The position numbers and the translations under genes were made by a program. The notes beneath the pieces are model-generated. The model did not search any database. It was not told the DNA's origin and saw nothing but the letters and a program-made list of their open reading frames with translations. Shown here piece by piece: positions 49,156 to 61,812 of a stretch of 64,000 nucleotides of DNA. The stretch's first letter is position 1. Each line of letters opens with the position of its first letter. Source of the stretch: Verrucomicrobiia bacterium (GTDB lineage: Bacteria > Zixibacteria > MSB-5A5 > DSPP01); NCBI GenBank assembly GCA_035574275.1, contig DATLYY010000007.1:4928-68927 (forward strand). Reading direction: 5' to 3'.

Positions 49156-49171
49156 TTGTGAAAATCTTCAC
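49156..49171. promoter_or_regulatory. CRP/FNR-family consensus palindrome TGTGA-N6-TCACA upstream of hppA
   Basis: Perfect TGTGAaaatctTCACA about 87 nt upstream of the hppA start. A second palindrome TTGGCTTGCCAA lies at 49175-49186 and a TATATT -10-like hexamer at about 49204. Confidence 0.45.
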
Positions 49172-49257
49172 AATTTTGGCTTGCCAAAAGTTTTTGGGCG
49201 CATATATTGGACGGCCTTTGAAAATCGGAAACAAACGCTCGAAAAGGAGAGAGAGGA

Positions 49258-51652: not shown

Positions 51653-51698
51653 CAACTGTCAACTTTTGGACACCAAGTGTCAACTTTTTTGCATTGAC
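51653..51698. repeat. 46-nt direct repeat, copy 1 (contains TGTCAA-N4-TGGACA and TGTCAA-N10-TTGAC)
   Basis: 43/46 identical to 54930-54975. Sits immediately after the hppA terminator and about 250 nt upstream of the Cys-rich lipoprotein gene. Confidence 0.8.
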
Positions 51699-51948
51699 GG
51701 GCGTTTGGTTTTCCTCTCATTTTATTCCCGTATGCTATGGCAGGAGCGTAACTGGGGTAGAGATTTTTGGGGAAATAGCCGCATCATAAACCGCAACCTC
51801 ACCCGGCTTGGCAACCGGGGGAGATCTCTTCCAGCCTCCGTTCGTGTGAAAGGAGGTAGTTTATAACCTAAAACAATCCATTTTGAGTGTAAGTGAACAG
51901 CATTTTGTTGGACCGAACTTGACCCGTTTCTTGGAAAGGAGCAGGTTT

Positions 51949-52806
51949 ATGCTATCCAGATTCCGCTTGACACAAACTTTCAAAGGGCTTACTCTTTTTG
52001 TGCTTATGTCCTTTATTTTATCCGTTTGGGCAGGATGTTCGGATACTAAAATCACGGGTACAGATGTGCCGTTAGTCAGCTCAGCACCGGAATTTTTAGG
52101 GAAAGTTGATACGGCCGGGTGCGAACAATGTTCCGCCAAAAAAGAAGTGGATAGTGGTACACCAAACAAGATCGGATTGTTTCTTGCAACCGATCGTGGC
52201 GACGATGGAACAGAGTCGGAGCCCGCGCCGCCATATTTGGTGACCGATGGACCGGAGCTCCAACTTTTGGTGGGGATGGCCAATGGCAACCCCACGGTAG
52301 CCGCCGCAAAGGCATATTTGATTGCCGGCGGGTTCTATTATGCTCCTTCAGTCGCAATAGGGGTAAGAGATCATTACGGTGGAAATGAAATCGTCTATCT
52401 GCCATTTGGTGTGTTTTCCGACCCCAATACAGCTGCTTATCTCATTTATGCCAATTCACAAGGCCAAAGCGCTTCCGCCGTTGGTTATGTAAAAGCCACC
52501 AATACTTATCCAGGAAATGGGTACGAATACTGGACCACCTTCCAGACGGATGATGGTTCGTATAAACAAGTATGGGTTAAGACAGTAAGCCTGACTCCCA
52601 TTGGAGGTAACACAGTTGTAACCGATTGCAACGCTCGATACTGGAAGTGTTTTTTGGGTGGAGCGCTGTTAGGTTGCCGCGGAGCTACGCTTCGGTGTCT
52701 GATAATGGGGCCGGCTACGCTGGTTTGTGCTGCCACAGGTTGCGCATTCGCTATGATTCCCGCTGCGTTGGGTTGCGGTGTTCGTACCGCTCAAGGATGC
52801 CAATAA
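51949..52806 (+). CDS. secreted (lipo)protein with a Cys/Gly-rich hydrophobic C-terminal region; no recognisable family
   Basis: Start at MLSRFRLTQ... preceded by AAGGAG. Signal peptide ending VWAGC. Last about 60 aa contain 10 Cys within hydrophobic/Gly context (CNARYWKCFLGGALLGCRGATLRCLIMGPATLVCAATGCAFAMIPAALGCGVRTAQGCQ). Local GC is lower than the rest of the window. Confidence 0.6.
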   Translation: MLSRFRLTQTFKGLTLFVLMSFILSVWAGCSDTKITGTDVPLVSSAPEFLGKVDTAGCEQCSAKKEVDSGTPNKIGLFLATDRGDDGTESEPAPPYLVTDGPELQLLVGMANGNPTVAAAKAYLIAGGFYYAPSVAIGVRDHYGGNEIVYLPFGVFSDPNTAAYLIYANSQGQSASAVGYVKATNTYPGNGYEYWTTFQTDDGSYKQVWVKTVSLTPIGGNTVVTDCNARYWKCFLGGALLGCRGATLRCLIMGPATLVCAATGCAFAMIPAALGCGVRTAQGCQ

Positions 52807-52845
52807 TAAACGGAATGGTGTAACTTCGGAAAAAGGAGGAAAAAG

Positions 52846-53067
52846 GTGAGCAATTCTAATTCCAATTTCAGAAATGGAAGGCAACTGCTTATTTCGCTCA
52901 TTGTGGCTATTATTGTGGGTGTTCTCTGGGGTTGGTTAACCACGATTAAGGCACTCGACGAGTGGTGGCGGTACTTCACGTTTGGCCTCCTTATTTCCGA
53001 GATTTATCATTACGGCTACTGGATTCCCAAACTCAAAGCCGAAGGGAAGCTTATCATTAAGAAATAA
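52846..53067 (+). CDS. small two-TM membrane protein (73 aa)
   Basis: GTG start after AAAGGAGG. Two hydrophobic helices (LLISLIVAIIVGVLWGWL; YFTFGLLISEIYHYGYWI). Followed by a terminator. Confidence 0.5.
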   Translation: MSNSNSNFRNGRQLLISLIVAIIVGVLWGWLTTIKALDEWWRYFTFGLLISEIYHYGYWIPKLKAEGKLIIKK

Positions 53068-53083
53068 ATTTTCGTTCCGTTGC

Positions 53084-53115
53084 AAGGCCGCTTCATTGAA
53101 GCGGCCTTTTTATTT
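53084..53115 (+). terminator. rho-independent terminator after the small membrane protein gene
   Basis: AAGGCCGCTTC-ATT-GAAGCGGCCTT stem followed by TTTTATTT. Confidence 0.7.
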
Positions 53116-53148
53116 CCTAAACTCACAATCGCCTTCCTAAAAAAGCAC

Positions 53149-53176
53149 TTGACAAGCTCCTAAAGCACCTTATATA
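53149..53176 (+). promoter_or_regulatory. near-consensus sigma70-type promoter (TTGACA-16 nt-TATATA)
   Basis: TTGACA at 53149-53154 and TATATA at 53171-53176. Upstream of the small secreted ORF and the TPR-HTH regulator. Confidence 0.5.
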
Positions 53177-53225
53177 TTTTTTCCGATATTAAAAGTAGAG
53201 CCATAGACCGAAAGGAGTGGTGATT

Positions 53226-53513
53226 GTGCGTCCGCTGGCCTTTAAATTTTTAACCCTTGCGTTAACCATGTTCCTGCTCCTTTCGTTTTCCCTTTCCGCT
53301 TTCGCCTTGCCCCTCCGCTATTGGCTGGCCACTCGGGATGTGGATGAACAACCGTACCCGGCGGCTTCCCGCAATGCGACCTATTTTGTGGTTCTGAAGA
53401 CGACGTACGGAATTGTGTTAATACCGGTTTTTGTAAAATCGGGCAAAATCTCAAACGCCATTACCCCGGAAAAGTCGGGTTTTTCATCAGGGAAAAATGA
53501 AATCCTCGACTAA
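53226..53513 (+). CDS. small secreted protein (about 95 aa), hypothetical
   Basis: GTG start 8 nt after AAAGGAG. N-terminal signal peptide (FKFLTLALTMFLLLSFSLSAFA). Overlaps the start of the downstream regulator by 17 nt. Confidence 0.4.
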   Translation: MRPLAFKFLTLALTMFLLLSFSLSAFALPLRYWLATRDVDEQPYPAASRNATYFVVLKTTYGIVLIPVFVKSGKISNAITPEKSGFSSGKNEILD

Positions 53514-54927
53514 ACGGCTCTCCGTACTGTCCGAAAAGCTTAGAAAGACCAATTCCCTGGTCAAAACGAACAAGTTTCAGGAAGCGCTTGCGGAATTAAA
53601 TTCCTTGTCGGATGCTTTTGACGCAACGGATTTCTCCGAAGAGCGGGCCCAATTTAATTATTTGCGCGGACTTGTCCTCTGGCGGTTGGGAGAAAAAAAG
53701 CAGGCCTTGGAGCCAGCTCGAAACGCTTTGAAGTCCTATTTATTTCTGAAGAGTTTCGTGGGAGTAGCCAAATCGCAAAGTTTGCTTGGGTATGTTCTTA
53801 TCGATTTAGGCAATTTAGAGGATGCGGAAGAGCATTTGCAATTGGCGGTTTCCAGTTTTAAGCTGGCGAACGATTGGTCGCAGGCCGCCAGGGCTTTGAA
53901 CCGCATCGCTTACCTGTACAGCATTCGTGGAAAGCTGGACTTTGCAAACTATTTCAATGACCAAGCCCGAACCTGCGCCGTTAGGGCCAACGACCGGTAC
54001 TATGAGCAGTTGTTAGGGTGCAGTCGCGCCGTTCATTGCCGGTTGGCCGGGGATTGGAAATCCGCCCTTGAAAAGTTGGATGATTTTTTGAATCAAAGCA
54101 AAAAGGCCGCGGACTACTTCAGCCATGTTTTCGGATTGATTAACGCGGGTCATGCCAAATTTCTTGGCAATCTTTTGAAACAAGCGCGGGATCATTATTT
54201 GGAAGCCATCCGGGTCGCAAGCCGAGAGAATTTGATAGGCAGTTTGAAAGTCGCCTACGAATTTTTAGCCGAGCTGGATATTGCCGAAGGGCGGTATGCC
54301 GAGGCGGAGGAGAACCTCAAAAAGGCGCTGGAAATCGGCGAGCGAGTCTCCCCGTACGGCACCATTATGACCCAGTGCTGGCGCTTGATGGGGGATTTGC
54401 GGCTGGCCCAAAAAGAATACGATCGGGCCATGGAGGCCTACGCCACTTGCCGGAGCTACTTGATTAAACTGCCCGAGAAACTCGAAGAAGGTGCGATGTA
54501 TCGCGGGATGGGTATCTGCCACATCCGCAAAGACCAGTTCTCGCTGGCGCAGGCGGCATTCAAAAAAGCGATTGAAATTTTCGAGGCGTGCGAAAACGAT
54601 TGGGAGCTGGCAAAAACCTACGTGGAAGCGGCCGAGTGCGGGGCATTTGCTCTGGCCGAACTCCGCTCCAAGCTCGCCTGGGCCAAGGGGATTTTCCATG
54701 AACTGGAACACCCTTCTTGGGAGAAAAGAGTGGAGGTGCTTTTGGGGCATTCTGAACCCTCCTCGAACGGAATCCCGTTACGCTTGGCCCACGAAATGGC
54801 CGACCGCCAAAGAGTCACCCAGGCCCTTTTCGAAACCGGAGGAAACATCTCCCACGCGGCCGAAAAGCTGGGGATTTCCCGCCCGGCCCTGCACTACAAA
54901 ATCAAACGCTACAAATTGGCGGTATAG
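53497..54927 (+). CDS. TPR-repeat transcriptional regulator with C-terminal Fis-type HTH (HTH_8)
   Basis: 476 aa. Multiple TPR-like helical repeats. C-terminal 'RQRVTQALFETGGNISHAAEKLGISRPALHYKIKRYKL' is a canonical Fis/NtrC-type HTH. No AAA+ domain. Confidence 0.75.
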   Translation: MKSSTKRLSVLSEKLRKTNSLVKTNKFQEALAELNSLSDAFDATDFSEERAQFNYLRGLVLWRLGEKKQALEPARNALKSYLFLKSFVGVAKSQSLLGYVLIDLGNLEDAEEHLQLAVSSFKLANDWSQAARALNRIAYLYSIRGKLDFANYFNDQARTCAVRANDRYYEQLLGCSRAVHCRLAGDWKSALEKLDDFLNQSKKAADYFSHVFGLINAGHAKFLGNLLKQARDHYLEAIRVASRENLIGSLKVAYEFLAELDIAEGRYAEAEENLKKALEIGERVSPYGTIMTQCWRLMGDLRLAQKEYDRAMEAYATCRSYLIKLPEKLEEGAMYRGMGICHIRKDQFSLAQAAFKKAIEIFEACENDWELAKTYVEAAECGAFALAELRSKLAWAKGIFHELEHPSWEKRVEVLLGHSEPSSNGIPLRLAHEMADRQRVTQALFETGGNISHAAEKLGISRPALHYKIKRYKLAV

Positions 54928-54929
54928 CC

Positions 54930-54975
54930 CAACTGTCAACTTTTTGACACCAAGTGTCAACTTTTTTACGTTGAC
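54930..54975. repeat. 46-nt direct repeat, copy 2 (contains palindrome TGTCAA-N4-TTGACA and TGTCAA-N10-TTGAC)
   Basis: 43/46 identical to 51653-51698. Begins 3 nt after the regulator stop codon, about 310 nt upstream of the Yip1 gene. Confidence 0.8.
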
Positions 54976-55287
54976 CCCCTTTTATATTCCCTTTCATATT
55001 ACCACCGGTTTTGGAAGCGCGTCCCTGAAATGGGACTTCGGGGGAATGCCCATTTGCCCCACGCCTCCTCCGGCAGAGCCGCTCCACCCTTTTTCGGGGA
55101 GATTGCCGGGGGAGGCATTTTTTAGTTCCCATCAAAACGATGCCCGGCGGGTAAGCGGCCTTGCCGTTGTCTGTTTGCCCTCCAACCCCTATTCCAAGAC
55201 CCCCTCTCAATCGTTATATTAAAATTTGTGACGGTAGTCAGTTTTTGCAACCTCACGGAAAAAACGGCGTATGAGAAAATGACGTAG

Positions 55288-56034
55288 ATGGGAGGAACGA
55301 TGGAACAAGCGATGGCGGCCCCGGCGGCCATGCAGCCGGGCGGCGATTTGGGTTTTTTGGCCCGCTGGGCCAATATCTATTTTTCGCCCAAGAAGGTCTT
55401 TGAGGCGGTGAAAGCCCGCCCTTATTGGGTGGTACCGATGGTTCTTCTCGTGCTTCTGGGAACCGGATTCTATTTCTGGACCTCCGGGGCGCGGATGAAC
55501 GACACGTTAGAGAAGATGCGCAAAAACGAAAATATCATGGCGATGCCGGCCGAACAGCGCCAGGAAATTTTCGACCGGGTGGAAAGCCAGTTCAAAAGCC
55601 CGCTGTGGGGTTCCGTGGGGGTTCTTTTCGGAATCGCCTACTTTTTCATCGCTGCCGGAATTTTGTTTTTCGTCGGCAACATTATAATGGGAGGGGAAGC
55701 CCGCTTCGCCCAGGTTTTGGGGGCCTTCGTGTACACCGGGTTTATCGGCGTCCCGGAAATGCTGGTGCAGGGGCTTTTGGCCGCAGCCAAGGGAAGTTTG
55801 AACACGGCTTTGTCGTTGGCTGCCTTTTTCCCGCCCGACCAATCGGAAACTTTCGTCTATCGGTTGATCAACGGCTTCGACATTTTTTCCATCTGGTTCA
55901 TCTCGGTTTTGATTATCGGCCTGGCCACGGTTTACAATTTCAAAGCCGGCAAGGTGGCGGCTTGGATTCTGCCGCTCTGGGTTCTTTGGAAGGTGATTGC
56001 CGCGGCCTTGGCCGGTCTGGGCATGGGTTTTTAA
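55288..56034 (+). CDS. Yip1-domain integral membrane protein
   Basis: 248 aa. Soluble N-terminus then 5 TM segments with Yip1-family spacing. Alternative start at MEQAMAAP (55300). Confidence 0.65.
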   Translation: MGGTMEQAMAAPAAMQPGGDLGFLARWANIYFSPKKVFEAVKARPYWVVPMVLLVLLGTGFYFWTSGARMNDTLEKMRKNENIMAMPAEQRQEIFDRVESQFKSPLWGSVGVLFGIAYFFIAAGILFFVGNIIMGGEARFAQVLGAFVYTGFIGVPEMLVQGLLAAAKGSLNTALSLAAFFPPDQSETFVYRLINGFDIFSIWFISVLIIGLATVYNFKAGKVAAWILPLWVLWKVIAAALAGLGMGF

Positions 56035-56047
56035 ATTTGGAGGAAGG

Positions 56048-57364
56048 ATGAAGAGAATAGTACTCATTAGTTTTTGTCTTGTCTTTGGGGCGGTCGCCGC
56101 TTGGGCGCAGGTCAAGCCGCTGACCTTGAACGACGCCCTTTCGACCGCTTTGGAGAAAAACTTCGGCTACCGCATTGCCGAGGGAAACTGGGAAGTGGCG
56201 AAAGCGGAAAAAACGGGTGCCGCGGGAGGGCTTTTGCCCTTTGTCTCCGTCGGTTTGTCCTACGGCTGGACCAAGCGGGGCCCTTCCTCCTCCTTTACGC
56301 AGGGTCTCATAGTCGTTCCCGGTTCGAATCAGACCACCACCACGGCCAACTACAGTTTGGGGCTGGAGATCCGCCAGGATTTGTTCGACGGAGGGGCTTC
56401 CTTCTCCGGTTACAAAGCCGCTTCGGCTTCGGAAGCCGCCGCGCGCGAGGGTTTTCGCGGCGCCCGGCAGCAGCTTGTTTTCGACGTCCGGAATTCCTAC
56501 TATTCGGCTCTCAAAGCCAAATTGCTTTTGGAAGTCCAAAAAGACGTAGTAAAAAGGGGGGAGGAGCAGTTGAAAATCGCCCAGGCCCGCTACGATTTGG
56601 GCTCGGCCTCCCTATCCGACGTTTTGAAAGCGAGGGTTTCCTACGCCAACGACCAGCTGGCCTTGATTTCGGCCGAGAACAGCTATCAGGTTTCGCTGGC
56701 CAATCTGAACTCCATCATCGGCGAAAACGTCAATGATTCCATTGAACTGGCCGATACATTGGTGCCTCCGTCCGAGTTGAATTTGGGTTTTGAAGAGGCC
56801 CTGCTAAAGGCCGAAAAAAATCATCCCGACTTATTGGCTGCCCAGGAAAATATGAAGGCGGCCGACTGGGGAGTGCAGGCCGGGCGGGCAGGGCTCTATC
56901 CATCCTTATCCTTGAACGCCGGCTACGGCTGGAACAACCGGGATTTTTCCCGTGTCACCTCCCTTTTTGACCGGGATTACCAGTGGCGGTTTGGGTTTTC
57001 CATCGGCTACAACATTTTTGACCGGTTTTCCACCTACCAGTCGATAAAATCCTCCCAGGCCCGGCATTCCAACGCGCGGGAAACGTACCTGCAGACCAAA
57101 AGCCGGGTGGCGCTCGAAGTCAAGCAAGCGTTTCTGGATATGGCTCAGGCCAAACAGAAGCTGGAGGTGACCAACCAGCAATCGGAATCGGCGGAGGAGG
57201 ATTTGAACATCGTGCAGGAAAAATACAATCTTGGAGCGGCCACCATTCTGGAACTCTTGGATGCCCAGGTGAGCTACAAGCAGGCCAAGTCGGACCAGGT
57301 GCAGGCGCTCTTCGACTACAACCTGGCGGCGGCGCGGCTTAAAAAATCAATCGGCGAGGAGTGA
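56048..57364 (+). CDS. tolC: TolC-family outer-membrane efflux channel
   Basis: Start at MKRIVLISF (signal peptide) preceded by GGAGGAAGG. Two OEP repeats, 'LTLNDALSTALEKN' N-terminus, coiled-coil periodicity. Confidence 0.85.
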   Translation: MKRIVLISFCLVFGAVAAWAQVKPLTLNDALSTALEKNFGYRIAEGNWEVAKAEKTGAAGGLLPFVSVGLSYGWTKRGPSSSFTQGLIVVPGSNQTTTTANYSLGLEIRQDLFDGGASFSGYKAASASEAAAREGFRGARQQLVFDVRNSYYSALKAKLLLEVQKDVVKRGEEQLKIAQARYDLGSASLSDVLKARVSYANDQLALISAENSYQVSLANLNSIIGENVNDSIELADTLVPPSELNLGFEEALLKAEKNHPDLLAAQENMKAADWGVQAGRAGLYPSLSLNAGYGWNNRDFSRVTSLFDRDYQWRFGFSIGYNIFDRFSTYQSIKSSQARHSNARETYLQTKSRVALEVKQAFLDMAQAKQKLEVTNQQSESAEEDLNIVQEKYNLGAATILELLDAQVSYKQAKSDQVQALFDYNLAAARLKKSIGEE

Positions 57365-58614
57365 AAATGAAAACCAAGACAAAAATCTTCATCGGCATAG
57401 GCGCGGGGCTTGTCATTCTGGCCTTGGTGCTGGTCAACCTCAAGCGCTCCTCCTCTTCGGAGATAAAAGTGGAGGCGGAAAAACTGAAGCGGACCGACAT
57501 CGTCTCCATCGTTACCGCCAACGGCAAAATCAAGCCGCGAACCGACGTCAAAATTTCGGCCAACATTTCGGCCCAGATTATTGAACTTCCGGTGGAGGAG
57601 GGGGATCGGATCCATCGCGGCCAGCTTTTGGTCCGGCTGGACCCCGGCCGCTATCGGGCCGCCGTGGACCAGGCCAAGGCCCAGTTAAAGCTGGAAAAGG
57701 CGAATCTGGATCAAGCCGAGCAGAATTTTAACCGGATCAAACCGCTCTTTGAAAAAAACCTGGCTTCCCAGGAGCAGTACGACCAATCCGCCACCCAGCT
57801 TTCAGTAGTCCGGGCCCGCCACGAGGCGGCCCAGCACAACTTGGAGCAGGCGGAGGATGATTTGTCCAAGACCATAATCAATTCCCCCATCGACGGCATC
57901 GTCTCCGAGCTTAGGGCCGAAAAAGGAGAAACGGTGATTCCAGGCACGATGAACAATCCCGGCACGGTGATCATGACCGTGTCCGATTTGTCGGCCATTG
58001 AGGTGGAGGTGGATGTGGATGAAACCGACATCGCATTGGTGAAAGTGGACCAGACCGCGGAAGTTTCCGTGGACGCCTTCCGGGACACCACCTTCAGGGG
58101 CCGGGTCATAGAAGTGGGAAGCGCCGCCTTGGCTCCCGGCGCCGGTTTGGGACAGGAACAGGTGACCAACTTCCGGGTCAAAATCCTGCTTTTGGACAAA
58201 GTCGCCGGCATCAAGCCGGGAATGACCGCCACCGCCGATATCGTCACCGCCGAAAGGAAAAACGTCCTTGCTGTTCCCATTCAGGCCGTGGTGCTGCGGG
58301 ATTCGTCCGCTTTGGTAAAAGCCAAGGAGAAAGACAAAAAAGACAGCGGGGCATTCGCCTCCACACCGGCTTCCGCCCCGGCTTCAACCGCGGCTCCAAA
58401 AAAGAAAAAAGAGCTGGAAGGGGTATTCGTTATCCGGGACGGCAAGGCGGTTTTCGTCCCGGTCGTCGTGGGAATCGCCGACCAGACCAACATCGAAGTG
58501 CTATCCGGCTTGCAGGAGGGGGATATGATTATCACCGGCAGCTACAAAACCCTCCGGACGCTGGAGAACGAAGCGAAAGTAAAGACGGAGGAGAAGGGAA
58601 AGAAGGCCTCCTGA
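57361..58614 (+). CDS. macA: efflux adaptor (HlyD/MacA-family periplasmic membrane-fusion protein)
   Basis: 417 aa. N-terminal TM anchor, biotinyl-lipoyl-like and coiled-coil hairpin, beta-barrel and MP domains. Confidence 0.85.
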
Positions 58615-59300
58615 TGTTAATCCATATTCGCAATCTCTGGAAAACGTACGATATGGGGCAGGCCGTTCAGGTGCAGGCCCTGCGGGGGGTGGACTTGGAC
58701 ATCGAACGGGGGGAATACATCGCCATTATGGGCCCTTCCGGTTCGGGAAAGTCGACACTGATGAATCTAATCGGCTGTCTGGACACTCCCTCGGAAGGAA
58801 CCTACGAGCTGAACGGCCGGATGGTCTCCCAGCTTTCGGATGACGAGCTGGCCTTCATCCGGAACAAGGAGATCGGCTTCGTCTTTCAGACCTTCAACTT
58901 GCTGGCCCGGGCGACGGCCTTGCACAACGTCGAACTTCCCCTGATTTACAACGGCACTCCGGCCGGGGAGCGGAAGAAAAAAGCGCAGCAGGCCCTGGCG
59001 GCGGTCGATTTAACCGACCGGGCGCATCACAAGCCGAACGAACTCTCCGGCGGGCAGCGGCAAAGAGTAGCCATCGCCCGCGCGCTGGTGAACAGCCCTT
59101 CGATTATCCTGGCAGACGAGCCGACCGGGAATTTGGACTCCGCCACCGGGGCAGAGATTATGCAGCTTTTCGACCGGCTTCACAAACAAGGGAACACCAT
59201 CATTTTGGTCACCCACGAGCACGACATCGCCGCCTATGCCGAGCGGAGCGTGCATCTGCGGGACGGCAAAATTGAAAAGGACGAACGCCGGGCGGCGTAA
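58614..59300 (+). CDS. ABC transporter ATP-binding protein (MacB/LolD-type)
   Basis: 228 aa. Walker A 'GPSGSGKST', signature '[15 protein letters not shown]', Walker B '[11 protein letters not shown]'. Confidence 0.9.
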
Positions 59301-59312
59301 GGGTATTGCGAC

Positions 59313-60569
59313 ATGGGAAAACTGAAAACGCCGATTTGGGAAAGCGTTAAAATCTCGCTTACCTCCCTGCGGGCGAATAAGCTCCGCTCTATTTTGACCT
59401 TAGTCGGTGTCATCATCGGCGTCACCTCGATTATAACCATGGTCTCTTTGATTTCCGGTTTCAACAAGCTGGTGGCCGACCAGTTGGCGACTTTGGGCTC
59501 CACGACCTTTATCGTAGAAAAATTCGGCATCATTTTGTCCGACGACGACTGGTTCGACGCCATGAAACGCAAGGATTTGACCTTGGCTGACTACCAGGCG
59601 GTGGTAGCCGGCTGCACGGAATGCGAGGAGGTTGCGCTGCAAAAAGTTTCCAACCGCAAGGTCAAATACGGGCGGGAGCATTTTTCCCGTGTCCCGATTG
59701 TCGGCATCACCCCAAATTACATGAAAGTGGTGGCGCTGGACGACATCGTGGACAAGGGGCAGGGGCGGGTGATCACCGAGTTCGAAAACGACCACCGCCG
59801 GCAGGTGGTGATTTTGGGGCCGGAGCTGACCGACAAATTTTTCCCGATGCTCGACCCGATCGGCAAAAAAGTCAGAATCGGCGACGCCGACTTCACCGTG
59901 GTGGGAGTGCCCAAAAAGCGGGGTTCTTTTCTGGGAGACAACCAGGACCGTTTCGCCGCCATCCCCTTCAGCGTTTATCAAAAATATTTTTCCAACAAGC
60001 TGGAACCCTGGGAAGGGCTTCAGTTTTACATCAAGGCCAGGGATTATCCTTCGATGGAAAAAGCCCAGGATCAGGTGCGGGCCATTCTGCGCGCCCGCCG
60101 TCACGTTCCCTACCACGCCAAGGATGATTTCGGCATGTACACGGCGGAAACCTTGATGGATCTGTTCAAACAGGTGACCACCGGGATTTCCTTCACGCTG
60201 GTAGGCATCGTTTCCATTTCCCTTCTGGTCGGCGGCATCGTGATTATGAACATCATGCTGGTTTCCGTCACCGAGCGGACCCGCGAAGTCGGCGTCCGCA
60301 AGGCCCTCGGCGCCCGCCGCCGCTCGATTTTGTTGCAATTTTTGATTGAATCGGTCACCCTCGCGGTGGTGGGCGGCACAATTGGGATTTTTCTGGGGGT
60401 TTTATTGGCCAAAGTGATTTCCTGGACCACCCCGATACCGGCCGCCATCGAGCCCTGGTCGATAATCGCCGGGCTTTTGGTTTCCACCGGCGTGGGGGTT
60501 TTCTTTGGCGTTTTCCCGGCCGCCAAGGCGGCCCGGCTGGATCCCATCGAGGCGTTGCGTTATGAATAA
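59313..60569 (+). CDS. ABC transporter permease, FtsX/MacB-type (periplasmic domain + 4 TM)
   Basis: 418 aa. MacB_PCD-like periplasmic region between TM1 and TM2. C-terminal FtsX domain. Confidence 0.85.
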   Translation: MGKLKTPIWESVKISLTSLRANKLRSILTLVGVIIGVTSIITMVSLISGFNKLVADQLATLGSTTFIVEKFGIILSDDDWFDAMKRKDLTLADYQAVVAGCTECEEVALQKVSNRKVKYGREHFSRVPIVGITPNYMKVVALDDIVDKGQGRVITEFENDHRRQVVILGPELTDKFFPMLDPIGKKVRIGDADFTVVGVPKKRGSFLGDNQDRFAAIPFSVYQKYFSNKLEPWEGLQFYIKARDYPSMEKAQDQVRAILRARRHVPYHAKDDFGMYTAETLMDLFKQVTTGISFTLVGIVSISLLVGGIVIMNIMLVSVTERTREVGVRKALGARRRSILLQFLIESVTLAVVGGTIGIFLGVLLAKVISWTTPIPAAIEPWSIIAGLLVSTGVGVFFGVFPAAKAARLDPIEALRYE

Positions 60570-61812
60570 ATTCCGCTGGGCGGAGATGCGGGAGGGGATG
60601 GCTCTGGCCTTCGACAGTTTGCGCGCCCACAAAATGCGCTCCTTTTTAACCATGCTCGGAGTTTTCATCGGCGTACTTTCGGTCATCGCCATGGCTTCCA
60701 TCATCGAGGGGCTGAACCGTTCGGTCTCCGACCAGATTCAAAACCTTGGCTCCAATGTTATCTTCGTCACCCGGTTCAAAATTGGTTTTCAATTCGGCGA
60801 CCGTTCGGAAGAGGAGCGGCTGCGCAAGCCGATCACCTTCGAAACCGGCGAGGCAATCAAGGAGTTCTGCCCGGCCGTGGACGCCGTTTCCCCGCAAAAC
60901 TACGTTTTCGTGGACGGCGGCAACGTCGCCAAATACAAGGGAAACACCTTCAAGCGTCCCTCCCTTTTCGGCACCCTGCCGGACTACGAGCGTGTGAACA
61001 ATCACTATGTGGAGCAGGGGCGTTTCATCACCGATATCGACCACCATTTCAAGGCGATGGTCTGCGTCATCGGCGCCGACGTAGCCGAAGCGCTTTTTCC
61101 CAAAATCGAGCCGATCGGCAAGGAGATTTTGGTGAACAACCACAAGTACCGGGTGGTGGGGGTGATGGAGCACCGCAAATCCAATCTGGGGCGAAACTCC
61201 AACAACATCATCGTGCTTCCTTACGGCACCTTCGCCCGGCTGCATCCCTGGGAAAAGGAGCTTCTACTTGTAGTGCGCAGCCGCTCGCTGGAAGAACAGC
61301 AGTTGGCGATGGATCAAATTGAATCCGCCCTGCGCCGCCAGCGGGGGGTTCCCTACAACAAGCCGAACGATTTCGAGCTGGCCACCCAGGAGCAGTTGTT
61401 GGAATCCTTCCGCTCCGTCACGATGGGAATTTTCTTTTTGATGATAGGCATTTCCGGCATTGGGCTTTTGGTCGGCGGCGTCGGCGTGATGAACATCATG
61501 CTCGTTTCGGTCAAGGAGCGCACGCGGGAAATCGGCATCCGCAAGGCGATCGGCGCCAAGCGCAGAAACATCCTCTGGCAGTTTTTGATTGAGGCCGTCA
61601 CCCTTTCCTGCTCCGGCGGCATAGCCGGAATCCTCATCGGCACGGGCATCGCCCTTTTAATCGGTGCCACCACGCCCTTGCCGGCGGCCGTCTCGCCGGT
61701 CTGGGTTTTCATCGGCTTCACCGTATCCGTTTCGGTTGGGCTGGTCTTCGGCATCTACCCCGCCTATCAGGCCGCCAAACTGGACCCAATAGTTGCCTTG
61801 CGGTACGAATAG
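60562..61812 (+). CDS. second ABC transporter permease, FtsX/MacB-type (LolC/LolE-like pair with the upstream gene)
   Basis: Start at MNKFRW (60562) overlaps the upstream stop. Same architecture as the preceding gene, about 35% identical by eye. Confidence 0.85.
   Translation: MNKFRWAEMREGMALAFDSLRAHKMRSFLTMLGVFIGVLSVIAMASIIEGLNRSVSDQIQNLGSNVIFVTRFKIGFQFGDRSEEERLRKPITFETGEAIKEFCPAVDAVSPQNYVFVDGGNVAKYKGNTFKRPSLFGTLPDYERVNNHYVEQGRFITDIDHHFKAMVCVIGADVAEALFPKIEPIGKEILVNNHKYRVVGVMEHRKSNLGRNSNNIIVLPYGTFARLHPWEKELLLVVRSRSLEEQQLAMDQIESALRRQRGVPYNKPNDFELATQEQLLESFRSVTMGIFFLMIGISGIGLLVGGVGVMNIMLVSVKERTREIGIRKAIGAKRRNILWQFLIEAVTLSCSGGIAGILIGTGIALLIGATTPLPAAVSPVWVFIGFTVSVSVGLVFGIYPAYQAAKLDPIVALRYE

What the first reader, a model, noticed from the sequence alone, without database searches (positions are those of the whole stretch)
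51653..51698. Repeat contains palindromes TGTCAA-N4-TTGACA and TGTCAA-N10-TTGAC, candidate operator for the adjacent Fis-HTH regulator
Each copy carries two TGTCAA half-sites with inverted TTGACA/TTGAC partners. This is the organisation expected for a dimeric HTH protein binding site. One copy abuts the 3' end of the TPR-Fis-HTH regulator gene and both precede plus-strand transcription units. The TTGACA halves also double as potential -35 hexamers, so regulator occupancy could directly occlude or recruit RNAP.
Basis: seen in the sequence. Interest (0 to 1): 0.55.

Follow-up and report, generated by a model that had tools for sequence, protein, structure and literature searches.

The report
Tandem operator boxes at regulated promoters
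The 46-base repeat is a conserved promoter module, two 16-bp palindromic boxes set two helical turns apart against a -35 element, and is very probably the binding site of the neighbouring TPR/Fis-type regulator; the site type is ordinary, but the regulator family is rare, unstudied and appears to be a sigma-54 activator that lost its ATPase.

Summary
The repeat is real: two copies at 51653-51698 and 54930-54975, 43/46 identical. Each copy holds two 16-bp boxes of the form TGTCAA-N4-TTGACA (that is, TGT-N10-ACA), 21 bp centre to centre, directly followed by a -35 hexamer (TTGACN). A conserved -10 (CAnnTT) lies 18 nt further on.

Thirteen group-1 modules with exact 21-bp spacing (two in the window, eleven in six related metagenome genomes), plus two with a 1-nt longer box 1, keep this layout, usually starting 7 nt after the regulator's stop codon. 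In four regulator lineages the half-site changes together with the recognition helix: LHY with TGTCAA, LQY with TGCAAA (twice), LCS with TGACGA. The -35 stays TTGnnn. This supports the adjacent TPR-HTH_8 protein as the binder.

That protein family is tiny. Its nearest relatives are TPR/sigma-54-AAA+/HTH_8 activators, so it looks like an enhancer-binding protein that lost its ATPase and now works at sigma-70-type promoters. I infer activation, not shown.

The promoters drive homologous structured leader RNAs absent from Rfam. One has a terminator/antiterminator and lies ahead of a YknWXYZ/TolC-like exporter; the other precedes a Cys-rich lipoprotein cassette. No binding or transcript data exist.

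The parts
51653..51656 (+). Conserved CAAC flank 5' of box 1, copy 1. The same CAAS precedes box 2 inside the linker.
   Evidence: High information content in 12 aligned modules.
51657..51672 (+). Box 1 of copy 1: TGTCAACTTTTGGACA (TGT-N10-ACA; 5 of 6 arm pairs).
51678..51693 (+). Box 2 of copy 1: TGTCAACTTTTTTGCA (degenerate right arm), 21 bp after box 1.
51694..51699 (+). Predicted -35 hexamer TTGACG of the copy 1 promoter.
   Evidence: Conserved TTGAC in 11 of 12 modules; independent of box sequence in paralogues.
51718..51723 (+). Predicted -10 hexamer CATTTT, 18-nt spacer.
   Evidence: A at position 2 in 12 of 12 modules and T at position 6 in 10 of 12.
51730..51948 (+). Type B leader RNA (5' UTR of the lipoprotein gene), homologous to the type A leader.
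   Evidence: Alignment A2; orthologues in L002, L006, L013, L009 and L018; no Rfam match.
51949..52806 (+). 285-aa lipoprotein gene (lipobox ..WAGC) with a Cys/Gly-rich hydrophobic C-terminus; cargo of the copy 1 promoter.
   Evidence: no Pfam or NCBIfam family.
52846..53067 (+). 73-aa predicted membrane protein gene, followed by a terminator-like hairpin at 53084-53108.
53149..53178 (+). Strong sigma-70-like promoter (TTGACA-18-TATATT) of the small-protein/regulator operon; it carries no boxes in this window.
53217..53513 (+). 98-aa protein gene with a signal peptide; overlaps the regulator start and is conserved as a partner of the regulator.
   Evidence: synteny.
53497..54927 (+). TPR + C-terminal Fis-type HTH_8 regulator (476 aa); no AAA+ domain.
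   Evidence: Pfam; PDB profile match to NtrC-family DNA-binding domains; family size and nearest relatives.
54930..54933 (+). Conserved CAAC flank of copy 2, starting 3 nt after the regulator's stop codon.
54934..54949 (+). Box 1 of copy 2: TGTCAACTTTTTGACA (perfect 6-N4-6).
54955..54970 (+). Box 2 of copy 2: TGTCAACTTTTTTACG (degenerate right arm).
54971..55000 (+). Predicted promoter: -35 TTGACC, 18-nt spacer, -10 CATATT.
   Evidence: Found by the promoter scan and conserved across orthologues.
55007..55124 (+). Type A leader RNA: hairpins P1 and P2, then a 14-bp terminator stem (55063-55116) and a U run. Its 5' end can instead pair with the terminator's 5' arm, forming an antiterminator.
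   Evidence: Fold gives -53.5 kcal/mol, z -2.2; alternative fold in truncated sequences; 90% identity over 7 orthologues with a compensatory hairpin replacement in L006; no Rfam family.
55288..59300 (+). Downstream operon: Yip1/YknW-like membrane protein, TolC-like OEP, HlyD/YknX-like fusion protein and ABC ATPase. MacB-type permeases follow in the orthologues.

Best explanation
Each repeat copy is a regulated promoter module. Two 16-bp inverted-repeat boxes (consensus TGTCAA-N4-TTGACA, i.e. TGT-N10-ACA) lie 21 bp apart centre to centre, so they face the same side of the helix. Box 2 abuts a -35 hexamer (TTGACN), which is followed after 18 nt by a weak -10 (CAnnTT).

The boxes are the operators of the TPR/HTH_8 regulator encoded immediately upstream at 53497-54927. 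One dimer binds per box, probably cooperatively, with a good distal box and a weaker proximal one. If transcription starts about 7 nt after the -10, the box centres fall near -65.5 and -44.5, upstream of the core promoter and not overlapping it. The -10 systematically lacks the -12 T that the regulator's own promoter has. I therefore infer that the bound regulator recruits or stabilises sigma-70-type RNA polymerase, i.e. activates. Its TPR domain would receive the signal, possibly through the co-encoded 98-aa exported protein.

The two promoters in the window drive homologous structured leader RNAs.
- One carries a terminator/antiterminator switch and lies ahead of a YknWXYZ/TolC-like exporter operon.
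- The other precedes a Cys-rich lipoprotein gene and a small membrane-protein gene.

What is shown: the sequence anatomy, its conservation, the co-variation with the regulator, the domain content and the family relationships. What is inferred: binding, stoichiometry, the sign of regulation, transcription start sites and the signal.
For: 1. The repeat and the tandem boxes are far beyond chance.
2. Thirteen group-1 modules, two in the window and eleven in six related metagenome genomes, keep boxes, linker, -35 and -10 in register. Information content is 1.6-1.7 bits per position in the boxes and -35, against 0.87 in the spacer and 0.68 downstream.
3. In group 1 and in the paralogues L005, L016 and L018 a module starts 4-7 nt after the regulator's stop codon. 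In L009 the only module seen lies upstream of the cassette.
4. Specificity co-varies with the recognition helix. Helix ..ALHYKIKRY goes with TGTCAA/TTGACA. Helix ..LQY(K/R)IK.Y goes with TGCAAA/TTTGCA in two separate clades (P0015 in L018; P0025 and P0027 in L016 and L005). Helix ..TLCSILKRI goes with TGACGA/TCGTCA (L009). The architecture (two boxes, 21-22 bp period, then TTGnnn) is kept throughout.
5. The regulator carries a bona fide HTH_8 domain (47.5 bits, cutoff 22), and a family profile matches the NtrC4, NtrC, ZraR, FleQ and Fis DNA-binding domains. NifA, another HTH_8 protein, recognises TGT-N10-ACA (PMC4999443).
6. The module is not dispersed. There are two copies in the 64-kb window, both within 3.3 kb of the regulator. 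A scan of 185,579 species genomes found one true match, next to the orthologous regulator (L007, which is identical to L001).
7. The TyrR precedent shows an HTH_8 protein using adjacent strong and weak palindromic boxes at sigma-70 promoters, activating from upstream sites and repressing from overlapping ones (PMC4374768).
Against: - There are no binding, expression or transcription-start data. All genomes are uncultured MAGs.
- The right arms of the boxes are loosely conserved (TAAGCA and TAAACA in L001 and L002), and an asymmetric CAAS flank precedes each box. Recognition may therefore not be purely symmetric.
- In L012 the same two boxes lie 17 bp, about 1.6 helical turns, further from a -35 than in the other modules. 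A single fixed activation geometry does not fit both arrangements.
- The -35 is near consensus, which is less typical of activator-dependent promoters.
- Only one species-representative genome could be scanned whole, so the true size of the regulon is unknown.
Confidence: 0.7

Rival explanations
1. The same boxes are bound by the same regulator, but it acts as a repressor or anti-activator. Two cooperatively bound dimers abutting the -35 would block alpha-CTD or sigma region 4 contacts until the TPR domain receives a signal.
For: The -35 hexamer is near consensus (TTGACN), so basal activity could be substantial. Box 2 touches the -35. TyrR-type HTH_8 proteins do repress at some promoters.
Against: The boxes never overlap the -35, the spacer, the -10 or the start site in any of 13 modules. 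The -10 is systematically suboptimal (C at -12) and the spacer is 18 nt, which fits activator dependence. In L012 the boxes lie 17 nt upstream of a -35, with centres at -61.5 and -82.5, a position suited to activation and not to repression.
Confidence: 0.2
2. The boxes are recognised by a different protein, for example a TPR/sigma-54 activator paralogue or an unrelated transcription factor, and the adjacency to this regulator gene is incidental.
For: TPR-AAA+-HTH_8 paralogues exist in the same genomes (L005). TGT-N10-ACA is a generic motif for HTH_8 activators.
Against: The box sequence changes in step with the adjacent regulator's recognition helix in four lineages, at the same position after its stop codon. 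No GG-N10-GC sigma-54 promoter is conserved downstream; I inspected the alignments.
Confidence: 0.06
3. The direct repeats are recombination or insertion scars (att-like or MITE-like) that flank a mobile 3.3-kb segment, and are not regulatory sites.
For: The two copies are direct repeats bracketing 3277 bp of lower G+C. Cassette content next to the boxes varies between genomes, and window 51690-53138 is absent from L012, with the breakpoint at box 2.
Against: The regulator gene between the repeats is present in every orthologous locus, including those with a single module (L001, L004, L011). No integrase or transposase is nearby. All copies share one orientation with a conserved -35 and -10 and lie upstream of genes. 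The element is single-copy in the one whole genome scanned.
Confidence: 0.03
4. The repeat acts at the RNA level as the intrinsic terminator of the regulator gene (UUGACAC-CAA-GUGUCAA hairpin followed by a U run).
For: The terminator scan lists 54944-54960 as a weak hairpin with a T run, and no other terminator follows the regulator gene.
Against: The hairpin is lost in L001 and L002 (AAGCAGCAACTGTCC), although the boxes are kept. Copy 1 sits just after a strong terminator of the H+-PPase gene and does not need one.
Confidence: 0.02

Closest known systems
NifA/NtrC-type upstream activator sequences (sites of HTH_8 enhancer-binding proteins; NifA UAS is TGT-N10-ACA)
   Same: The DNA-binding domain family is the same (PF02954; a family profile matches NtrC-family DNA-binding domains). 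The site is a 16-bp dyad with TGT and ACA 10 bp apart. Sites occur as tandem pairs on one helical face. The nearest protein relatives are TPR-AAA+-HTH_8 enhancer-binding proteins.
   Different: The regulator has no sigma-54 interaction (AAA+) domain. The sites abut a sigma-70-type -35 instead of lying about 100 bp upstream of a -24/-12 promoter. No GG-N10-GC element is conserved downstream.
TyrR boxes of Enterobacteria (TGTAAA-N6-TTTACA)
   Same: An HTH_8 protein acts at sigma-70 promoters through adjacent strong and weak palindromic boxes starting with TGT and ending with ACA. Dimers bind cooperatively, and the outcome depends on box position relative to the promoter.
   Different: The arm spacing is N4 (16 bp) rather than N6 (18 bp). 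TyrR has ACT-PAS-AAA+ domains and binds amino acids; this protein has a TPR array and no AAA+. There is no sequence orthology beyond the HTH.
RRNPP quorum-sensing regulators (Rap/Rgg/NprR/PlcR/PrgX) with their exported propeptides
   Same: A TPR sensor is fused to an HTH in a cytoplasmic regulator. A small gene for a protein with a signal peptide is co-transcribed with it. The targets include exported or toxin-like proteins and an exporter.
   Different: The domain order is reversed (TPR N-terminal, HTH C-terminal). The HTH is Fis-type, not XRE-type. The partner is about 70 aa when mature, not a short peptide precursor. Similarity to Rap and Rgg TPRs is weak and below cutoffs. This resemblance is a lead only.
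Bacillus subtilis YknWXYZ exporter (target side of the regulon)
   Same: The downstream operon encodes a Yip1/YknW-like membrane protein, a YknX-type fusion protein, an ABC ATPase and, in the orthologues, MacB/FtsX permeases.
   Different: The YknW_fam hit is below its cutoff (72.9 against 110 bits). A TolC-like outer-membrane factor is added. Regulation by this module and by the leader RNA is not known for YknWXYZ.

Membership tests
Operator of a Fis-type (HTH_8) DNA-binding protein | The candidate binder carries an HTH_8 domain. | tested here: met
   PF02954 at residues 433-472, 47.5 bits against a cutoff of 22. A family profile matches the NtrC4 DNA-binding domain 2m8g at E 4.6e-8, and also NtrC, ZraR, FleQ and Fis.
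Operator of a Fis-type (HTH_8) DNA-binding protein | The site is an inverted repeat sized for a dimer (about 16-18 bp dyad, TGT...ACA type). | tested here: met
   TGT-N10-ACA holds at box 1 in 10 of the 13 modules (GCA in L001, CCA in L012 4599, TGT-N11-ACA in L013 and L014) and at box 2 in 6 of 13 (ACG or GCA in the rest). Paralogue boxes are TGCAAA-N4/5-TTTGCA and TGACGA-N4-TCGTCA.
Operator of a Fis-type (HTH_8) DNA-binding protein | The protein physically and specifically binds the site. | not testable with these tools
   This needs EMSA, footprinting or DAP-seq. The only proxy is helix/half-site co-variation in four lineages.
Bacterial enhancer-binding protein (sigma-54 activator) with its UAS | A central AAA+ sigma-54 interaction domain (PF00158). 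| tested here: not met
   No PF00158 hit in the 476-aa protein. It is present in the nearest outgroup proteins P0039, P0041, P0044 and P0059.
Bacterial enhancer-binding protein (sigma-54 activator) with its UAS | A -24/-12 promoter (TGGCAC-N5-TTGC) downstream of the sites. | tested here: not met
   By inspection of the aligned downstream regions, a TGGCAG-N5-TAGC-like string occurs only in L002. The GC of the -12 element is not conserved in the window, L006 or L009, and the string is absent from type A.
TyrR box | TGTAAA-N6-TTTACA, with the essential G and C 14 bp apart. | tested here: not met
   The boxes here are 6-N4-6, two bp shorter than the 18-bp TyrR box, so the essential G and C are correspondingly closer than in TyrR boxes.
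Sigma-70-type promoter | -35 and -10 hexamers with a 16-19 nt spacer, and a transcription start 5-9 nt downstream. | tested here: inconclusive
   The hexamers are present and conserved: TTGACN, 18 nt, CAnnTT, with A2 in 12 of 12 and T6 in 10 of 12. The start site cannot be mapped with these tools.
RRNPP-type peptide-sensing TPR-HTH regulator | N-terminal XRE-type HTH, C-terminal TPR, and a short exported signalling peptide. | tested here: not met
   The domain order is reversed and the HTH is Fis-type. The partner protein is 95-100 aa. TPR matches to Rap and Rgg are weak or below cutoff.
Dispersed mobile repeat (REP/MITE) | Many dispersed copies with terminal inverted repeats and target duplications, in either orientation. 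| tested here: not met
   There are 1-3 copies per locus, all near the regulator and all in one orientation. One copy was found in the whole species-representative genome.
Any Rfam family (for the leader RNAs driven by the module) | A match at or near the gathering score. | tested here: not met
   There were 0 hits at gathering thresholds on the whole window. Permissive scans gave only spurious matches driven by terminator hairpins.

The most novel reading that the evidence does not exclude
The locus could be a self-contained signalling circuit of a new type in an uncultured lineage. In this reading, an enhancer-binding protein lost its AAA+ motor and now activates sigma-70 promoters directly from TGT-N10-ACA boxes abutting the -35. 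It would sense, through its TPR array, the co-encoded exported 98-aa protein, giving an RRNPP-like quorum or self-sensing logic with reversed domain order. It would switch on a toxin-like Cys-rich lipoprotein with an immunity-like partner and a YknWXYZ/TolC exporter. Each target would additionally be gated by a shared, undescribed riboswitch-like leader RNA.
Probability: 0.12. Interest if true: 0.75.

Novelty: new variant of a known kind. Interest (0 to 1): 0.45.

Why it matters
The result gives a concrete, testable regulator-operator pair, with three natural specificity variants, for a protein family that has no characterised member. Only about half a dozen full-length cluster representatives exist among 1.84 billion.

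If the inference holds, the family shows how a sigma-54 enhancer-binding protein can be rewired into a conventional sigma-70 promoter factor. The rewiring would involve losing the ATPase and moving its UAS-type sites to the -35.

The helix/half-site correlation (H with TGTCAA, Q with TGCAAA) is a small natural experiment on the recognition code of Fis-type HTH domains.

The same work uncovered an undescribed, strongly conserved leader RNA with a terminator/antiterminator layout ahead of an exporter operon. That RNA is a candidate new cis-regulatory element.

In scope the finding remains a lineage-restricted, computationally inferred transcription-factor site.

Tried and rejected
- **Sigma-54 promoter downstream of the boxes.** A TGGCAG-N5-TAGC-like string occurs in one orthologue only, and the -12 GC is not conserved. 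Rejected.
- **ECF-sigma reading of GTCAACTTTT as a GGAACTT-type -35.** No conserved -10 (CGT or TCAAA type) lies at 16-17 nt. Rejected.
- **Box-internal TTGACA arms as -35 elements.** TTGACA-17-TACGTT exists in copy 2 only and is not conserved. Rejected.
- **Regulator-gene terminator.** The hairpin is not conserved. Rejected.
- **Mobile element or att site.** No integrase, single orientation, not dispersed. Rejected, although cassette gain and loss next to the boxes is real.
- **Genome-collection scan with the degenerate module pattern.** It returned only L007, which is the same MAG as L001, and a Clostridia hit inside an 813-aa ORF (a 7-aa coding repeat). There is therefore no wider regulon information.
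- **Look-ups of P0017, P0018 and P0024.** These failed because the proteins are not on record. The boxes for the 'LHY/LQH' 50%-identity clade remain unseen.
- **L010 (P0021) and the 3' side of L009.** The contigs end, or no boxes are visible downstream.
- **phmmer of the regulator against PDB.** No hit. The family profile was needed.
- **Rfam.** Nothing at gathering or permissive thresholds.
- **Covariation statistics on the type A leader.** Not attempted, because the 7 sequences are 90% identical.
- **Coding reading of the type A leader (a 31-codon ORF in the window).** Rejected: there is no SD, and the frame is broken by a 1-nt indel in the orthologues.
- **Extra leader copies in the window via GGGGRAATRSCC.** The count was at chance level.
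- **Literature search for TPR + HTH_8 regulators.** Nothing relevant was found.

Full report
**1. What is in the sequence**

The 46-nt string occurs twice in the 64-kb window, at 51653-51698 and 54930-54975 on the + strand. The copies are 43/46 identical, and none appeared in 100 shuffles. Ungapped similarity runs on to 72 nt at 82%.

Read in register, each copy has this layout:
- CAAC
- box 1: TGTCAACTTTT(G/T)GACA, 16 bp
- linker: CCAAG, 5 bp
- box 2: TGTCAACTTTTTT(GCA/ACG), 16 bp
- TTGAC(G/C)

The second N4 box was not noticed.

The promoter scan reads that hexamer as a -35: TTGACC, 18 nt, CATATT at 54971-55000.

Single perfect 6-N4-6 palindromes are common, with 40 in the window. Two boxes sharing a left arm at 21-bp spacing occur only at these two places, against a mean of 0.19 in 100 Markov-1 simulations.

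**2. Surroundings**

Copy 1 follows the strong terminator of an H+-pyrophosphatase gene. After it come:
- a 250-nt non-coding stretch;
- a 285-aa lipoprotein gene with a Cys/Gly-rich hydrophobic C-terminus;
- a 73-aa membrane-protein gene;
- a terminator.

Next comes a near-consensus promoter (TTGACA-18-TATATT, 53149-53178). It drives a 98-aa signal-peptide protein gene that overlaps the start of the 476-aa regulator. The regulator consists of TPR repeats plus a C-terminal Fis-type HTH_8 domain, with no AAA+ domain.

Copy 2 begins 3 nt after the regulator's stop codon. It is followed by about 330 nt of non-coding DNA and an operon for a Yip1/YknW-like protein, a TolC-like factor, a YknX/HlyD-like fusion protein and an ABC ATPase. 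MacB-type permeases follow in the orthologues.

**3. Related loci**

The regulator has only 32 detectable homologues, all from metagenome-assembled genomes. Submitters label these Verrucomicrobiae or Limisphaerales; one identical genome is labelled Zixiibacteriota.

I recovered the genomic context for orthologues of 46-81% identity and for paralogues. Synteny is conserved: H+-PPase, variable cassettes, the 95-100-aa gene, the regulator, the module, then the Yip1-TolC-MFP-ABC-MacB operon.

Eleven further group-1 modules were found in L001, L002 (three), L004, L006 (three), L011 and L012 (two). L013 and L014 add two more with a 1-nt longer box 1. All are on the coding strand of their neighbours, and all but one are followed by TTG(A/G)C, 18 nt and CAnnTT.

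Column information is 1.72 bits in box 1, 1.69 in box 2 and 1.63 in the -35. It is 1.39 in the -10, but only 0.87 in the spacer and 0.68 downstream. This is a clear phylogenetic footprint.

The right arms vary (TTGACA, TAAACA, TAAGCA, TTTACG). What is kept is essentially TGTC...ACA, that is TGT-N10-ACA, plus an asymmetric CAAS flank before each box.

**4. Link to the adjacent regulator**

The strongest argument is co-variation between the recognition helix and the box half-site:

| Regulators | Locus | Recognition helix | Boxes | Next hexamer |
|---|---|---|---|---|
| Group 1 (P0001, 2, 4, 5, 7, 10, 11, 13, 14) | window and orthologues | R.ALHY(K/R)IKRY | TGTCAA/TTGACA | TTGACN |
| P0015 (53% identity) | L018, 7 nt after stop | RESLQYRIKKY | TGCAAAGGAATTTTGCA-CCAAG-TGCAAAATCTTTTTGCA | TTGACA, 18 nt, TTTTAT, then a type B leader |
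| P0027 (41-46% identity) | L005, after stop | RQTLQYKIKHY | TGCAAAAAATTTTGCA-CTTTC-TGCAAGTTTTTTTGCG | TTGCC |
| P0025 (41-46% identity) | L016, after stop | RQTLQYKIKHY | CGCCAAAAATTTTGCG-CGGGG-TGCAAAAATTTTTGCA | TTGCTC, 17 nt, TATAGT |
| P0023 | L009 | RTTLCSILKRI | TGACGAAAAGTCGTCA-CTTAC-TGACGAAATTTCGTCA | TTGCTT, then a type B-like leader |

The architecture is constant throughout: two dyads, a 21-22 bp period, then TTGnnn. Only the half-site tracks the helix.

This also shows that the terminal TTGAC is a -35 element and not a half-site. In group 1 the half-site simply happens to equal the -35 consensus.

The module is not dispersed. The pattern scan of 185,579 species-representative genomes returned one true hit, next to the orthologous regulator (L007, 100% identical to L001). 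The other hit is a coding 7-aa repeat in a Clostridia ORF.

**5. What the regulator is**

A family profile matches solved NtrC-family DNA-binding domains: NtrC4 2m8g at E 4.6e-8, plus NtrC, ZraR, FleQ and Fis.

An exhaustive HMM search of 1.84 billion cluster representatives found only about six full-length TPR-HTH_8 representatives. The next hits, at 720-980 aa, match in two stretches. The four I checked (777-962 aa) are TPR + Sigma54_activat + AAA_lid + HTH_8 proteins. One such paralogue, paired with a homologous small exported protein, lies next to P0027 in L005.

The family therefore looks like a TPR-type enhancer-binding protein that lost its ATPase.

NifA, another HTH_8 activator, recognises TGT-N10-ACA (PMC4999443). 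TyrR, an HTH_8 protein that works with sigma-70 polymerase, uses adjacent strong and weak TGTAAA-N6-TTTACA boxes. It activates from upstream positions and represses from overlapping ones (PMC4374768).

**6. Likely mechanism**

Assuming a start about 7 nt after the -10, box 2 spans about -52 to -37 (centre -44.5) and box 1 about -73 to -58 (centre -65.5). Both lie on one helical face and neither overlaps the core promoter.

The regulated -10s are CAnnTT, with C where the -12 T would be, and the spacer is 18 nt. The regulator operon's own promoters are TTGACA-17/18-TAT(A/C)(T/A)T.

On these grounds I infer activation by recruitment or stabilisation of RNA polymerase, with cooperative occupancy of a good distal box and a weaker proximal one. 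Repression by blocking upstream contacts is the main alternative. The TPR array is the presumed signal input, and the co-translated 98-aa exported protein is a candidate partner. All of this is inference.

In L012 the two boxes lie 17 nt upstream of the regulator-operon -35, with centres at -61.5 and -82.5. Window 51690-53138, which holds the promoter, leader, lipoprotein gene, 73-aa gene and terminator, is missing there. Cassettes are thus gained or lost immediately 3' of the boxes, and in that genome the boxes may autoregulate the regulator.

**7. What the promoters drive**

Downstream of the -10, the two window copies continue into homologous RNA-like elements (alignment A2). The conserved features are GGGGGAAUGCCC, CAUAA..CCAC, and a long stem CCUCCCCCGG/CCGGGGGAGG enclosing a variable hairpin.

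*Type A* (window about 55007-55124):
- It is 90% identical over seven genomes whose regulators are 68-81% identical.
- It folds into two hairpins and a 14-bp terminator stem with a U run (-53.5 kcal/mol, z -2.2).
- Its 5' end ((G)CCGG-A-UUU-GGA-A-GCG) can instead pair with the terminator's 5' arm. This fold appears when the 3' arm is left out.
- L006 replaces the inner hairpin with a different, self-complementary sequence.
- This is the layout of a transcription attenuator or riboswitch.

*Type B* (window about 51730-51948) lacks the U run. In the orthologues it carries an SD plus a two-codon mini-ORF ahead of the lipoprotein gene.

A third class, seen in L002 and L006, has a short leader before a DUF2784 gene.

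Rfam has no match for any of these.

**8. Verdict**

The interpretation as the operator of the adjacent regulator is supported by conservation and helix/half-site co-variation, with activation more likely than occlusion. No experiment exists.

In kind this is a conventional transcription-factor site. The variant aspects are:
- the AAA+-less TPR-HTH_8 regulator;
- UAS-type boxes fused to a sigma-70 -35;
- the fixed placement right after the regulator's stop codon;
- the shared, undescribed leader RNA.

Noticed in passing
window 55007-55124 (orthologues: L001 7451-7569, L002 8985-9103, L004, L006, L011, L012): A strongly conserved 118-nt leader RNA (90% identity across 7 genomes) with two hairpins, a strong terminator and a competing 5' antiterminator helix lies ahead of the YknW/TolC/YknXYZ-like exporter operon. 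It has no Rfam match and is a candidate new riboswitch or attenuator.
   Followed up: partly
window 51730-51948; L002 7511-7730; L006 7463-7690; L013 2482-2783; L009 171-403: A homologous 'type B' leader without a U run precedes the lipoprotein genes. In the orthologues, a strong SD followed by a two-codon mini-ORF (ATG GGA TAA, ATG GAA TGA or ATG AGC TAA) sits after the long stem. The window has ATA in place of ATG.
   Followed up: partly
window 53217-53513: A 98-aa signal-peptide protein gene (invariant D-E-x-P motif and a hydrophobic beta-like core) always overlaps the regulator's start. A homologue is paired with a TPR-sigma54-AAA+-HTH_8 activator in L005 (5380-5673, minus strand). It may be the signalling partner of these TPR regulators.
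   Followed up: partly
window 51690-53138 compared with L012 4632-4642: The promoter, leader, lipoprotein gene, 73-aa gene and terminator cassette is absent from the 87%-identical locus L012. The breakpoint lies at box 2, and L012 keeps the two boxes 17 nt upstream of the regulator-operon -35. L002 and L006 carry other cassettes (DUF2784, 384/412-aa protein, redoxin) behind extra modules.
   Followed up: partly
window 51949-52806 and 52846-53067: A lipoprotein with a Cys/Gly-rich hydrophobic C-terminus (shared with L002 237 aa and L006 244 aa) is followed by a small membrane protein and lies next to a YknWXYZ-like exporter. This resembles a toxin/immunity/export arrangement. No family assignment was found.
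   Followed up: partly
window 49157-49172: TGTGAAAATCTTCACA is a perfect CRP/FNR-type TGTGA-N6-TCACA dyad about 90 nt upstream of the H+-pyrophosphatase start codon.
   Followed up: no
window 55210-55300: About 90 nt immediately upstream of the Yip1/YknW start codon is highly conserved across orthologues and contains TGTGACGGTAGTCAGT (55227-55242, a CRP-like half-matched dyad). It is separated from the type A terminator by a spacer of variable length. It may be a second promoter or regulatory region for the exporter operon.
   Followed up: no
L007 (JAKEHY010000020.1) compared with L001 (GCA_973680415.1): The same genome sequence (100% identity over 7.6 kb) is held under two records. One is titled Candidatus Zixiibacteriota, while close relatives of the window are labelled Verrucomicrobiae or Limisphaerales. 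The taxonomic placement of this lineage is inconsistent in public records.
   Followed up: no
window 60174-60361 and 61417-61604: A 188-nt direct repeat at 72% identity, spaced 1243 nt apart. It most likely reflects two tandem paralogous MacB/FtsX permease genes, as seen in the orthologous loci.
   Followed up: no
L005 2300-2540 (minus strand): Downstream of the TPR-sigma54-HTH_8 paralogue there are TGTAAA-containing dyads (for example TGTAAAAATTCCTTGACA and TTTACGGAGTTAACTGTAAA) that may be its own sites.
   Followed up: no
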